A stretch of 64,000 bases of DNA from Escherichia coli. Its GTDB lineage: Bacteria; Pseudomonadota; Gammaproteobacteria; Enterobacterales; Enterobacteriaceae. The translations under genes and the position numbers were made by a program. The stretch lies in the NCBI RefSeq assembly GCF_013122565.1, contig NZ_CP053258.1. The stretch is one strand, 5' to 3'. Position 1 is the first letter of the stretch. Each line of letters starts with the position of its first letter. The notes below the pieces were generated by a model. The model searched no databases and was not told the DNA's origin. It saw only the letters and a list, made by a program, of their open reading frames with translations. Below, one piece after another: positions 33,747 through 35,609 of the stretch.

Positions 33747-34082
33747 ATGTCATTACCACACTGCCCAAAATGCAACTCCGAATACACCTACGAAGATAAC
33801 GGCATGTACATCTGCCCGGAATGTGCCTACGAATGGAACGACGCAGAACCTGCACAGGAAAGCGACAAGCTGATCGTTAAAGATGCTAACGGCAATCTGC
33901 TGGCTGACGGCGACAGCGTTACCATCATTAAAGATCTGAAGGTGAAGGGTAGCTCTTCGATGCTGAAAATTGGCACCAAAGTGAAAAACATCCGCCTGGT
34001 TGAAGGCGACCATAACATCGATTGCAAAATCGACGGTTTTGGTCCGATGAAACTAAAATCTGAGTTTGTGAAAAAGAACTGA
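33747..34082 (+). CDS. phnA: PhnA-family zinc-ribbon protein
   Basis: ORF 33600..34082; start at [13 protein letters not shown] gives 111 aa; CPKC...CPEC zinc-ribbon. Confidence 0.8.
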
Positions 34083-34097
34083 TTGTATTGTGATCGG

Positions 34098-34279
34098 TAA
34101 GCCGGATAAGGCGCTCGCGCCGCATCCGGCAACAGTGCCAGATGCCTGATGCGACGCGAGCGCGTCTTATCAGGCCTACAAATTCTCGCGCCATCCGTAG
34201 GCCGGATAAGGCGTTTACGCCGCATCCGGCAACGGTGCCAGATGCCTGATGCGACGCTCGCGCGTCTTATCAGGCCTAC
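34098..34279. repeat. BIME: two tandem copies of an ~85 bp REP-containing unit
   Basis: gccggataaggcg...ccgcatccggcaac.gtgccagatgcctgatgcgacgc...gcgtcttatcaggcctac occurs twice in tandem between phnA and phnB. Confidence 0.8.
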
Positions 34280-34347
34280 CCCTCCAATCTCAACTGTTCA
34301 AATTTCGAACTACACTTAACTGGCTTCTCTTAACTGAGGTCATCATC

Positions 34348-34782
34348 ATGCCGTTAAGTCCCTACCTCTCTTTTGCCGGTAACTGTTCCGACGCGATTGC
34401 CTATTATCAACGTACGTTGGGCGCGGAACTGCTCTATAAAATCAGCTTCGGCGAAATGCCAAAATCAGCGCAGGACAGCGCCGAGAACTGCCCTTCCGGA
34501 ATGCAATTTCCCGATACCGCCATCGCTCATGCCAACGTGCGCATTGCCGGAAGCGACATCATGATGAGCGATGCTATACCGTCAGGAAAAGCTAGCTACT
34601 CCGGCTTTACGCTGGTGCTCGATTCGCAACAGGTCGAAGAAGGAAAACGCTGGTTTGATAACCTTGCCGCTAACGGAAAAATCGAAATGGCCTGGCAGGA
34701 AACTTTCTGGGCGCATGGCTTCGGCAAAGTCACCGATAAATTTGGCGTACCGTGGATGATTAATGTCGTTAAACAACAATAA
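34348..34782 (+). CDS. phnB: PhnB-like glyoxalase/bleomycin-resistance fold protein
   Basis: ORF 34249..34782 runs through the BIME; start placed at MPLSPYLSF (GAGG ribosome-binding site upstream), about 144 aa. Confidence 0.75.
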   Translation: MPLSPYLSFAGNCSDAIAYYQRTLGAELLYKISFGEMPKSAQDSAENCPSGMQFPDTAIAHANVRIAGSDIMMSDAIPSGKASYSGFTLVLDSQQVEEGKRWFDNLAANGKIEMAWQETFWAHGFGKVTDKFGVPWMINVVKQQ

Positions 34783-34832
34783 TAGCTACCTGCTGCGCCC
34801 ACTGGCGTTAATTCCCAAAAAGGAGAAATACC

Positions 34833-35267
34833 ATGCCTGCTTGTGAGCTTCGACCGGCCACGCAGTACGACACCGACGCGGTTTACGCACTGATTTGTGA
34901 GCTAAAACAGGCGGAGTTTGACCACCACGCGTTTCGCGTGGGCTTTAACGCCAACCTGCGCGACCCAAACATGCGCTACCATCTGGCGCTGCTGGATGGC
35001 GAAGTTGTCGGCATGATCGGCCTGCATTTGCAGTTTCATCTGCATCATGTCAACTGGATCGGCGAAATTCAGGAACTGGTGGTGATGCCGCAGGCACGCG
35101 GTTTGAACGTTGGTAGCAAGTTGCTGGCGTGGGCGGAAGAGGAAGCCCGTCAGGCCGGGGCCGAAATGACCGAGCTTTCTACCAACGTGAAGCGCCACGA
35201 CGCGCACCGTTTTTATCTGCGCGAAGGCTATGAGCAGAGCCATTTCCGTTTCACTAAGGCGCTGTAA
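34833..35267 (+). CDS. phnO: GNAT-family N-acetyltransferase, PhnO-like
   Basis: 144 aa; acetyl-CoA binding motif (Q/R-x-x-G-x-G/A pattern: [11 protein letters not shown]); recognised as PhnO-like from sequence and from its position after phnB and before yjdP. Confidence 0.55.
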
Positions 35268-35279
35268 GATGAGCCTACC

Positions 35280-35609
35280 TCATCGCCCATACTCATCTTC
35301 CATTCTCCGCTCTTCATCTTCTAGCTGCCGACGCTCCTGATCAAGCTGGCGCTGGCGATCGTCCAGTTGCCTGCGGCGATCTTCAAACTGGCGGCGGCGA
35401 TCGTCATATTGTCTGCGACGATCGTCGCTCACTTCACGCTGCCAGCTGTCGTCGCGCGAATCTTCATAGTCTCGCCCACGGTCAGGGTTATAAGCGTCGT
35501 TAATCGCCTGCTGAATATTGCCAATGGTGTCGTCGATAATATCGGCCTGGGCCGGAACGGTGGACAGCGTGAGCAGGGTGAAAAGAAAGAGCGTGGAGTG
35601 GTGTTTCAT
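35280..35609 (-). CDS. yjdP: Small secreted low-complexity protein YjdP
   Basis: 109 aa; N-terminal signal peptide, then an Arg/Asp/Gln/Glu-rich repetitive tail. Confidence 0.7.
   Translation of the reverse strand: MKHHSTLFLFTLLTLSTVPAQADIIDDTIGNIQQAINDAYNPDRGRDYEDSRDDSWQREVSDDRRRQYDDRRRQFEDRRRQLDDRQRQLDQERRQLEDEERRMEDEYGR

What the first reader, a model, noticed from the sequence alone, without database searches (positions are those of the whole stretch)
33747..35609. phnA-phnB followed directly by a lone phnO-like gene; phnC-phnN and phnP are absent
In the K-12 arrangement the 14-gene C-P lyase operon phnCDEFGHIJKLMNOP lies between phnB and yjdP. Here the phnB stop (34782) is followed after about 50 bp by a 144 aa GNAT acetyltransferase I recognise as PhnO-like, whose stop lies 12 bp from the convergent yjdP. 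No ABC transporter, PhnF regulator or PhnG-PhnM lyase ORFs are present. Either this lineage natively has the phnA-phnB-phnO arrangement (as I recall for Salmonella), or about 11 kb has been lost. The strain would then lack C-P lyase phosphonate use while keeping the aminoalkylphosphonate acetyltransferase.
Basis: partly seen in the sequence, partly recalled or inferred. Interest (0 to 1): 0.5.

Follow-up and report, generated by a model that had tools for sequence, protein, structure and literature searches.

The report
Lone phnO left by operon deletion
This E. coli-type chromosome has lost about 10.6 kb of its phosphonate-degradation (C-P lyase) operon through several deletions that all spared one gene, the aminoalkylphosphonate acetyltransferase phnO, which is still under strong selection; Salmonella and Siccibacter reached the same end state independently.

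Summary
No other phn gene lies in the 64 kb.

The 53 bp from the yjdN stop codon to the phnO start are a decayed copy of the phnN 3' end, joined to yjdN at a shared CAACAA. Sister alleles still carry the start and end of phnP. About 50 outgroup species have the full operon at this locus.

The Salmonella enterica arrangement has a different junction, and three other Salmonella subspecies keep the operon, so the resemblance is convergent. Siccibacter is a third case.

The lone phnO encodes a protein identical to K-12 PhnO despite 24 synonymous differences. Nine short-haplotype alleles show 52 synonymous against 11 nonsynonymous segregating sites.

The arrangement is rare: 11 of 5,426 complete E. 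coli genomes have yjdN next to phnO, and 40 lack phnJ.

Why phnO is kept is inferred, not shown. The likeliest reason is Pho-independent detoxification of aminoalkylphosphonates, expressed from the yjdN transcript.

This is an ordinary but tidy case: a new member of a known kind, of modest interest.

The parts
33747..34082 (+). yjdM (phnA), zinc-ribbon protein, 111 aa. It is the upstream neighbour and is unaffected by the deletion.
   Evidence: NCBIfam TIGR00686, 209.6 bits. 99% aa identity to K-12. A promoter-like site lies at 33651-33679, CCGACA-17-TATAAT, 10 of 12 matches.
34100..34276 (+). Two tandem REP325/naRNA4 repeat units (34100-34176 and 34200-34276) in the yjdM-yjdN spacer. This is context and not part of the deletion.
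   Evidence: Rfam RF02564, 88 and 102 bits against a gathering score of 59.5. Direct repeat of 87 nt at 91% identity.
34348..34782 (+). yjdN (phnB), VOC-family metalloprotein. It is 144 aa here against 147 aa in K-12. The last three codons were replaced because the deletion junction lies inside the gene's 3' end.
   Evidence: NF007537, 319 bits, matching model positions 1-144 of 147. K-12 ends ...AAACAACAACCAACGCAATAA; the window ends ...AAACAACAATAA.
34774..34779 (+). Left deletion junction: a CAACAA microhomology shared by the yjdN 3' end and phnN. Relative to K-12, 9,706 bp are missing here, covering the yjdN hairpin, the phnC promoter region, and phnC through most of phnN.
   Evidence: Alignments. 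Size computed (L002 4237 to 13943). The cleanest version is in Escherichia sp. E1V33: AAACAACAA|TGACAGCAGCCTGCGCC.
34780..34832 (+). Decayed remnant of the phnN 3' end, now non-coding. It starts with the new yjdN stop codon (TAA, 34780-34782) and contains the phnO Shine-Dalgarno AAGGAG (34820-34825). A secondary 15-bp complex indel lies between 34799 and 34800.
   Evidence: Alignment to phnN of K-12, PS10 and others. The 15-bp indel is shared with C9/VE-T9 and E1V33 and is absent from MS16 and R32. Window against C9 differs by 6 substitutions and 1 indel in about 50 bp, which is roughly neutral decay.
34833..35267 (+). phnO, aminoalkylphosphonate N-acetyltransferase (GNAT), 144 aa and intact.
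   Evidence: NF007530, 314.7 bits against a cutoff of 142. 100% aa identity to K-12 PhnO with 24 synonymous and 0 nonsynonymous differences. E78 and Y128, shown to be needed for activity in PMC6199490, are present.
35268..35279 (.). 12-bp phnO-yjdP spacer (GATGAGCCTACC). This is the right-hand scar, where phnP and the phnP-yjdP intergenic repeats used to be. GATGAG (35268-35273) and CTCATC (35279-35284) can form a small hairpin.
   Evidence: C9/VE-T9 have 67 bp and E1V33 about 220 bp here, containing the phnP start (ATGAGCCT..CCGGCGGCGCAC) and the phnP end (GGCGTGA). The window lacks a further 55 bp between AGCCT repeats. The hairpin was read directly from the sequence and was not scored.
35280..35609 (-). 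yjdP, DDRRRQL-repeat protein, convergent with phnO. It is the downstream boundary of the former operon.
   Evidence: NF041443, 148.5 bits. The exact protein occurs on 8 contigs in the assembly collection.
34000..36800 (.). Divergent patch of about 2.8 kb covering the yjdM-yjdN spacer, yjdN, phnO, yjdP and the 3' part of the histidine-kinase gene. It is 91-97% identical to every comparator, inside flanks that are 99-100% identical to E. coli VE-T9.
   Evidence: Sliding identity table in 400-bp bins. Best complete-genome match for 34300-35700 is 96.6%, against 99.0% for 24000-34000.

Best explanation
The window carries an old, multi-step deletion allele of the Escherichia phn (C-P lyase) locus.

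Steps, with shown and inferred parts marked:
1. (Shown) A deletion of about 9.7 kb between a CAACAA in the last codons of yjdN and a CAACAA about 65 bp before the end of phnN. It removed the yjdN hairpin, the phnC promoter region, and phnC through most of phnN. It fused yjdN, now 144 aa, to a short phnN tail that still carries the phnO ribosome-binding site.
2. (Shown) A 15-bp complex indel inside that tail.
3. (Shown) An internal deletion of phnP.
4. (Shown) In this allele only, a further 55-bp loss, leaving 12 bp between phnO and yjdP.

(Shown) Every step spared the phnO reading frame, and phnO has stayed under strong purifying selection.

(Inferred) phnO is now transcribed by read-through from yjdN, and possibly yjdM, and so no longer depends on the Pho-regulated phnC promoter.

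(Inferred) It is kept because PhnO has a use that does not need C-P lyase. The most likely use is acetyl-CoA-dependent N-acetylation that detoxifies 1-aminoalkylphosphonates such as (S)-1-aminoethylphosphonate, an alanine racemase inhibitor released from phosphonopeptides that enter through peptide permeases.

(Shown) The same end state arose independently in S. enterica subsp. enterica and in the Franconibacter/Siccibacter lineage.
For: **Deletion scars**
- The phnN tail between yjdN and phnO is present in all short alleles, with the same CAACAA junction.
- phnP 5' and 3' remnants are present in C9 and E1V33, and a phnP pseudogene in R32.

**Polarity**
- About 50 Enterobacteriaceae species representatives have ...phnN-phnO-phnP(-yjdP) at this locus.
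- 5,386 of 5,426 complete E. coli genomes have phnJ.

**Selection**
- Window against K-12: 24 synonymous, 0 nonsynonymous differences.
- dN/dS is 0.00-0.06 against all alleles.
- 32 synonymous and 4 nonsynonymous segregating sites among five alleles that share the 15-bp indel, and 52 against 11 among nine short alleles. All ORFs are intact. Binomial P is about 1e-16 to 1e-22 against neutrality.
- The adjacent phnN remnant differs by about 12% between the window and C9.

**Independence from Salmonella**
- The junction is different and yjdN is intact at 147 aa.
- The full operon is present in salamae, arizonae and diarizonae.

**Third lineage**
- Franconibacter has phnF-phnH-phnO-phnP, and Siccibacter has yjdM-x-phnO, where x is an unidentified gene of about 515 aa.

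**Expression**
- There is no terminator-like or promoter-like site between yjdN and phnO.
- The deleted interval (L002 4237-13943) includes the whole yjdN-phnC intergenic region.

**Function**
- PMC3463581 shows that PhnO acetylates aminoalkylphosphonates and is required to detoxify (S)-1-aminoethylphosphonate even when phosphate is supplied. It also notes that alaphosphin enters through a dipeptide transport system.
Against: - phnO alleles from short haplotypes do not cluster together. The window is closer to full-operon PS10 (16 differences) than to C9 (22). So recombination with full-operon alleles has occurred, and some of the 'purifying selection' signal may have been imported rather than accumulated after the deletion.
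- Retention is not universal. L083 lost phnC-phnP entirely, and Escherichia sp. MOD1-EC7003 keeps only a phnO fragment.
- No promoter was identified for yjdN-phnO, and there are no expression data.
- The PhnCDE importer is gone, so any substrate must enter by another route.
- The detoxification role in a lyase-less strain has never been tested. [quoted passage not shown]
Confidence: 0.8

Rival explanations
1. Native arrangement: yjdM-yjdN-phnO is the ancestral state, as in Salmonella enterica, and the C-P lyase genes were inserted around phnO in the mainstream E. coli lineage.
For: S. enterica subsp. enterica has the same gene order. Many phn operons in other phyla lack phnO (PMC3463581), so phnO could in principle have a separate origin.
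Against: - The spacer before phnO is recognisably the phnN 3' end.
- Sister alleles keep both ends of phnP.
- It would need two precise insertions flanking phnO.
- About 50 outgroup species, including three Salmonella subspecies, have the full operon at the same locus.
- Salmonella's own junction also contains about 105 bp of phnN tail.
Confidence: 0.02
2. The lone phnO is a functionless leftover on its way to being lost, spared so far only by chance.
For: Some lineages have lost it (L083) or truncated it (L067). Its Pho promoter and its transporter are gone. The allele is rare: 11 of 5,426 complete genomes.
Against: - All nine short-haplotype alleles have intact ORFs, with 52 synonymous against 11 nonsynonymous segregating sites.
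- The protein is identical to K-12 over 24 synonymous changes.
- Four successive deletions stop 50 bp before the ORF and immediately after it.
- Retention is convergent in three lineages.
- The neighbouring phnN remnant decays freely.
Confidence: 0.08
3. phnO is retained for its second reported activity, protein N-epsilon-lysine acetylation, rather than for anything to do with phosphonates.
For: PMC6199490 reports that overexpressed PhnO acetylates 10 proteins in E. coli, dependent on E78, and that phnO expression rises in stationary phase. This activity needs neither C-P lyase nor a phosphonate importer.
Against: - The lysine acetyltransferase activity was seen on overexpression, has few targets and has no phenotype.
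- The small-molecule activity has a clear lethal-rescue phenotype (PMC3463581).
- Nothing in the sequence data discriminates between the two.
Confidence: 0.1

Closest known systems
E. coli K-12 phnCDEFGHIJKLMNOP operon (C-P lyase pathway) between yjdN and yjdP
   Same: Same chromosomal locus and same flanking genes (crfC, yjdM, yjdN ... yjdP). The PhnO protein is identical.
   Different: Thirteen of the 14 genes are missing, along with the region upstream of phnC that holds the operon's promoter in K-12. yjdN is 3 codons shorter. Only about 50 bp of phnN and no recognisable phnP remain.
Salmonella enterica subsp. enterica phnA-phnB-phnO arrangement (PhnO characterised by Errey and Blanchard 2006, as cited in PMC3463581)
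   Same: Gene order yjdM-yjdN-phnO with no C-P lyase. phnO is intact and preceded by a phnN 3' remnant.
   Different: It is an independent deletion.
- The left junction lies beyond a full-length 147-aa yjdN and its GC-rich hairpin.
- About 105 bp of phnN tail are kept.
- The downstream neighbour is an Asp/Arg-hydroxylase-family gene, not yjdP.
- PhnO is only 72% identical to K-12 in nucleotides (71% to the window).

Salmonella also has the phosphonatase pathway (stated in PMC3463581). No such pathway was looked for here.
Other Escherichia short phn haplotypes: C9/VE-T9 type (9 complete genomes), MS 16-3, R32_14_1F and Escherichia sp. E1V33
   Same: Same CAACAA left junction and 144-aa yjdN. 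C9, VE-T9 and E1V33 also share the 15-bp indel in the phnN tail.
   Different: - The window has a shorter right junction: 12 bp against 67 bp (C9/VE-T9) and about 220 bp (E1V33). MS16 and R32 instead carry an lmwPTP gene there, and R32 also a phnP pseudogene.
- It is 3-9% divergent across 34000-36800.
- No complete E. coli genome has the window's allele.
Franconibacter / Siccibacter reduced phn loci
   Same: Loss of the lyase core with an intact phnO retained next to yjdM.
   Different: Different junctions, and no yjdN. Franconibacter still has phnF, phnH, phnP and lmwPTP. PhnO is 66-83% identical in protein.

Membership tests
PhnO, aminoalkylphosphonate N-acetyltransferase (NCBIfam NF007530 equivalog) | Full-length match above the curated equivalog cutoff | tested here: met
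   314.7 bits against a cutoff of 142, residues 1-144 on model positions 1-144. The next best family (RimI) scores 36 bits.
PhnO, aminoalkylphosphonate N-acetyltransferase (NCBIfam NF007530 equivalog) | Sequence identity to the biochemically characterised E. coli enzyme, including residues E78 and Y128 needed for activity | tested here: met
   100% aa identity to K-12 PhnO. E78 and Y128 were counted directly in the sequence. The mutagenesis is reported in PMC6199490.
PhnO, aminoalkylphosphonate N-acetyltransferase (NCBIfam NF007530 equivalog) | GNAT acetyltransferase domain | tested here: met
   The 144-aa product called at the corresponding position in allele L079 carries precomputed Pfam hits PF00583, PF13673 and PF13508. 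The closest solved structure is the GNAT 1z4e, E = 1.9e-11.
PhnO, aminoalkylphosphonate N-acetyltransferase (NCBIfam NF007530 equivalog) | Acetyl-CoA-dependent acetylation of aminoalkylphosphonates, expressed in vivo | not testable with these tools
   Activity can be assumed from protein identity to the K-12 enzyme (PMC3463581). Expression from the new context is unknown.
C-P lyase operon (phnCDEFGHIJKLMNOP) | PhnCDE transporter, PhnF regulator, PhnGHIJKLM lyase core, PhnN and PhnP | tested here: not met
   tblastn of all these K-12/PS10 proteins against the 64-kb window finds none. The only hits are 23-30% ABC-ATPase cross-matches at 38065-39543.
C-P lyase operon (phnCDEFGHIJKLMNOP) | Pho-regulated promoter upstream of phnC | tested here: not met
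   The deleted interval (K-12 locus L002 4237-13943) includes the whole yjdN-phnC intergenic region, 4255-4386. That the Pho box lies there is established knowledge, not tested here.
Salmonella-type phnA-phnB-phnO locus (same state by descent) | Same gene order yjdM-yjdN-phnO without lyase genes | tested here: met
   L075-L077.
Salmonella-type phnA-phnB-phnO locus (same state by descent) | Same deletion junctions, meaning a shared event | tested here: not met
   In Salmonella the left junction lies after the yjdN stop and hairpin, and about 105 bp of phnN tail are kept. In Escherichia the junction is inside the last yjdN codons, with a tail of about 63 bp that is 53 bp in the window. Other Salmonella subspecies retain the operon.

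The most novel reading that the evidence does not exclude
The lone phnO has become a stand-alone, Pho-independent resistance gene against aminophosphonate antimetabolites, such as phosphonopeptide 'Trojan horse' antibiotics that release 1-aminoethylphosphonate or related warheads. The deletion created this by fusing phnO to the yjdN transcript. Under this reading, its repeated survival when C-P lyase is lost in Escherichia, Salmonella and Siccibacter means detoxification, not phosphorus scavenging, is PhnO's primary selected role in enteric bacteria. This would answer the question left open in PMC3463581 of what PhnO does in organisms without C-P lyase.
Probability: 0.3. Interest if true: 0.5.

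Novelty: new member of a known kind. Interest (0 to 1): 0.3.

Why it matters
C-P lyase is nearly universal in E. coli: phnJ is in 99.3% of complete genomes. This window is one of the rare natural knock-outs, and the strain is predicted to be unable to use methylphosphonate, aminomethylphosphonate (a glyphosate breakdown product) or other alkylphosphonates through that pathway.

The more useful point is comparative. In three independent lineages the operon decays down to an intact, strongly constrained phnO. That gives genetic evidence that PhnO has a function outside the C-P lyase pathway, something the biochemical literature explicitly lists as unknown for Salmonella. It also supplies natural strains (C9, VE-T9 and this one) in which the question can be tested directly.

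This does not change how the pathway is understood, and the genes themselves are routinely annotated.

Tried and rejected
1. **Native or ancestral arrangement.** Rejected by the phnN and phnP scars and by the outgroup distribution.
2. **Same event as in Salmonella.** Rejected by different junctions and by full operons in three other subspecies.
3. **Window derived from Pseudocitrobacter.** The genome scan gave 100% PhnO identity to P. vendiensis. Rejected because the Pseudocitrobacter flanks are only 74-79% identical to the window, while the window's flanks are 99% E. coli. The protein identity reflects a very conserved PhnO and an Escherichia-like phn operon in that genus.
4. **Assembly artefact.** Rejected because the same allele is in independent assemblies.
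5. **Functional element in the retained phnN tail.** Considered because independent deletions stop 50-105 bp upstream of phnO. Not supported: the tail differs by about 12% between the window and C9, has lost 15 bp, and only the Shine-Dalgarno sequence is conserved.
6. **Promoter/terminator scan between yjdN and phnO.** Nothing found.
7. **Rfam scan of 33300-35900.** Only REP325/naRNA4 units in the yjdM-yjdN spacer.
8. **The Errey and Blanchard 2006 paper (PMC2512265).** Not held in the library.
9. **Two literature searches.** Neither returned a title or abstract suggesting a description of natural phn-deletion haplotypes in E. coli; the papers themselves were not opened.
10. **PDB.** No PhnO structure; the best match is 1z4e.
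11. **Testing whether the 11 short-haplotype complete genomes lack phnJ elsewhere.** Could not be done genome by genome. Only the total is known: 40 genomes lack phnJ.
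Full report
**1. What is there**

The ORF map and sequence match the finding exactly:
- yjdM/phnA at 33747-34082.
- Two REP-type repeats.
- yjdN/phnB at 34348-34782.
- A 50-bp spacer.
- A 144-aa ORF at 34833-35267.
- A 12-bp spacer.
- Convergent yjdP at 35280-35609.
- A hybrid histidine kinase/response regulator gene on the minus strand.

NCBIfam places each protein in its equivalog family, well above the curated cutoffs. The 144-aa protein scores 314.7 bits against a cutoff of 142 for 'aminoalkylphosphonate N-acetyltransferase'. 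It is 100% identical in amino-acid sequence to K-12 PhnO. Probing all 64 kb with K-12 and PS10 Phn proteins finds no other phn gene.

**2. How unusual it is**

The K-12-type layout, yjdN-phnC...phnP-yjdP, was confirmed in strain J53 and in a full-operon strain that shares the window's downstream kinase cluster (PS10-3).
- Only 11 of 5,426 complete E. coli genomes have yjdN and phnO contiguous.
- Nine of these are a 'C9/VE-T9' type: yjdN, 47 bp, phnO, 67 bp, yjdP.
- The other two, R32_14_1F and MS 16-3, have an annotated phnN remnant before phnO and a low-molecular-weight phosphatase gene after it.
- phnJ is found in 5,386 of 5,426 genomes, so loss of C-P lyase is rare.
- None of the complete genomes has the window's allele. 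The best match across yjdN-phnO-yjdP is 96.6%, although the upstream 10 kb is 99.0% identical to ordinary E. coli.
- A sliding comparison shows the window is 99-100% identical to VE-T9 on both sides but 91-97% identical to everything between about 34,000 and 36,800.
- The window's allele does exist elsewhere. Assemblies L079 and L081 are 99.5% and 99.0% identical with no gaps and have the same 12-bp junction. This rules out an assembly artefact.

**3. Deletion or native?**

Left side: the stretch from the yjdN stop codon to the phnO start aligns to the last 60-65 bp of phnN.
- The cleanest copy is in Escherichia sp. E1V33: yjdN ...AAACAACAA|TGACAGCAGCCTGCGCC...
- K-12 phnN reads ...CTCAACAATGACGGCAGCCTGCGCC...
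- So the join lies in a CAACAA present in both genes, and yjdN ends three codons early (144 aa against 147).
- All Escherichia short alleles have this junction.
- The window, C9/VE-T9 and E1V33 also share a 15-bp complex indel inside the tail. MS16 and R32 lack it.
- In K-12 coordinates the missing block is 9,706 bp.

Right side: C9 and E1V33 still carry the phnP start codon region (ATGAGCCT...CCGGCGGCGCAC) and the phnP end (GGCGTGA), followed by the GC-rich repeats of the K-12 phnP-yjdP spacer. R32 has a phnP pseudogene. The window has lost another 55 bp between two AGCCT repeats.

Outgroups: about 50 species representatives carry ...phnN-phnO-phnP, usually followed by yjdP, at this locus. 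They include Citrobacter, Kluyvera, Leclercia, Lelliottia, Enterobacter, Silvania, Atlantibacter, and Salmonella arizonae and diarizonae. The arrangement is therefore derived by loss, through at least four steps in this allele.

**4. Relation to Salmonella**

Three points show it is a separate event:
- Its yjdN is full length (147 aa) and is followed by the same GC-rich hairpin as in K-12.
- The phnN tail is about 105 bp, and the downstream neighbour is a different gene.
- Subspecies salamae, arizonae and diarizonae keep the full operon.

The resemblance is convergent. A third case is Franconibacter (yjdM-x-phnF-phnH-phnO-phnP-lmwPTP, where x is an unidentified gene of about 515 aa) and its relative Siccibacter (yjdM-x-phnO).

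**5. Is the lone gene alive?**

- The window's phnO differs from K-12 at 24 sites, all synonymous.
- Against the other short alleles it has 19-26 synonymous and 2-5 nonsynonymous differences, giving dN/dS of 0.03-0.06.
- Five alleles that share the 15-bp indel have 32 synonymous and 4 nonsynonymous segregating sites.
- Nine short alleles have 52 and 11, and all are intact ORFs.
- The adjoining phnN remnant has about 12% differences plus an indel between the window and C9.

Caveats:
- Short-haplotype phnO alleles do not form a clade, so recombination with full-operon alleles has occurred.
- Synonymous diversity at phnO is unusually high even among full-operon E. coli (K-12 against PS10: 15 synonymous, 0 nonsynonymous).
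- Two lineages have lost phnO completely (L083) or partly (L067).

**6. How it probably works (inference)**

The deletion removed the entire yjdN-phnC intergenic region, which holds the operon's Pho-dependent promoter in K-12 (established knowledge), and also the hairpin after yjdN. No terminator-like or promoter-like site lies between yjdN and phnO, and the phnO Shine-Dalgarno sequence is retained. The simplest model is a yjdN-phnO, or yjdM-yjdN-phnO, transcript that is independent of phosphate starvation.

On function, PMC3463581 shows the following:
- PhnO acetylates aminomethyl-, 1-aminoethyl-, 2-aminoethyl- and 3-aminopropylphosphonate.
- It is required to detoxify (S)-1-aminoethylphosphonate even when phosphate is present.
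- This compound can enter as the dipeptide alaphosphin through a peptide permease, so PhnCDE is not needed.
- What PhnO does in lyase-less Salmonella is unknown.

PMC6199490 adds a weak protein lysine acetyltransferase activity. I favour detoxification, but no data here discriminate between the two.

**7. Verdict**

This is a new, independently derived member of a known kind of locus. Interest is modest. Its main value is as evidence, and as a natural test system, for a C-P-lyase-independent role of PhnO.

Noticed in passing
L006-L008 and L056 (Pseudocitrobacter spp. and a 'Citrobacter' MAG): The phn operon of Pseudocitrobacter is 90-95% identical in nucleotides to E. coli K-12 (proteins 94-100%), while the adjacent yjcS and mdtN are only 73-79% identical. 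The Citrobacter sedlakii phn operon, as a control, is 80-83%. This suggests fairly recent horizontal exchange of the whole operon between Escherichia and Pseudocitrobacter.
   Followed up: partly
window 34100-34176 and 34200-34276: Two tandem REP325/naRNA4 units (Rfam RF02564, 88 and 102 bits) lie in the yjdM-yjdN spacer. The spacer length varies between strains: 265 bp here, about 160 bp in C9/VE-T9 and 657 bp in K-12. This points to copy-number variation of the repeat.
   Followed up: partly
window 34000-36800: A patch of about 2.8 kb is 3-9% divergent from every comparator, inside flanks that are 99-100% identical to E. coli VE-T9. It looks like an imported or old allele. Loci L080 and L082 combine an R32-type left scar with the window-type right junction, so recombination between deletion alleles has occurred.
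   Followed up: partly
phnO in L002 (K-12) against L005 (PS10-3): Synonymous diversity at phnO is very high even among full-operon E. coli, with no amino-acid change: 15 synonymous and 0 nonsynonymous differences in 435 bp, dS about 0.17.
   Followed up: no
L004 6069-6407; L003 6282-6620; L013 7535-7858; L016; L026; L072-L074: A 112-aa low-molecular-weight phosphotyrosine-phosphatase-family gene sits between phnP or phnO and yjdP in some E. coli short haplotypes, in Franconibacter and in Citrobacter youngae. It is absent from K-12 and from the window. Its function is unknown, and it appears to be an optional last gene of the cluster.
   Followed up: no
window 35678-44837: Downstream of yjdP the window has a different gene set from K-12, which has rpiB-alsRBACEK there. 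The window's set is a hybrid histidine kinase/response regulator, a sugar ABC transporter, a D-lyxose/D-mannose-family isomerase, a ketose-bisphosphate aldolase, a sugar kinase and a response regulator. Only 410 of 5,426 complete genomes cover at least 80% of 35600-47600. The kinase is intact here but frameshifted in VE-T9.
   Followed up: partly
L083 (metagenome contig) and L067 (Escherichia sp. MOD1-EC7003): Further deletion variants exist. L083 has a 147-aa yjdN directly followed by yjdP, with no phnO. L067 has yjdN, a phnO fragment (aa 14-58), then yjcS. The phn locus is a deletion hotspot across the genus.
   Followed up: partly
L020 (Citrobacter sp. NCU1), between phnK and phnL: Several short repeated phnK and phnL fragments appear in the tblastn map, suggesting local tandem duplication or an assembly problem in that genome.
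   Followed up: no
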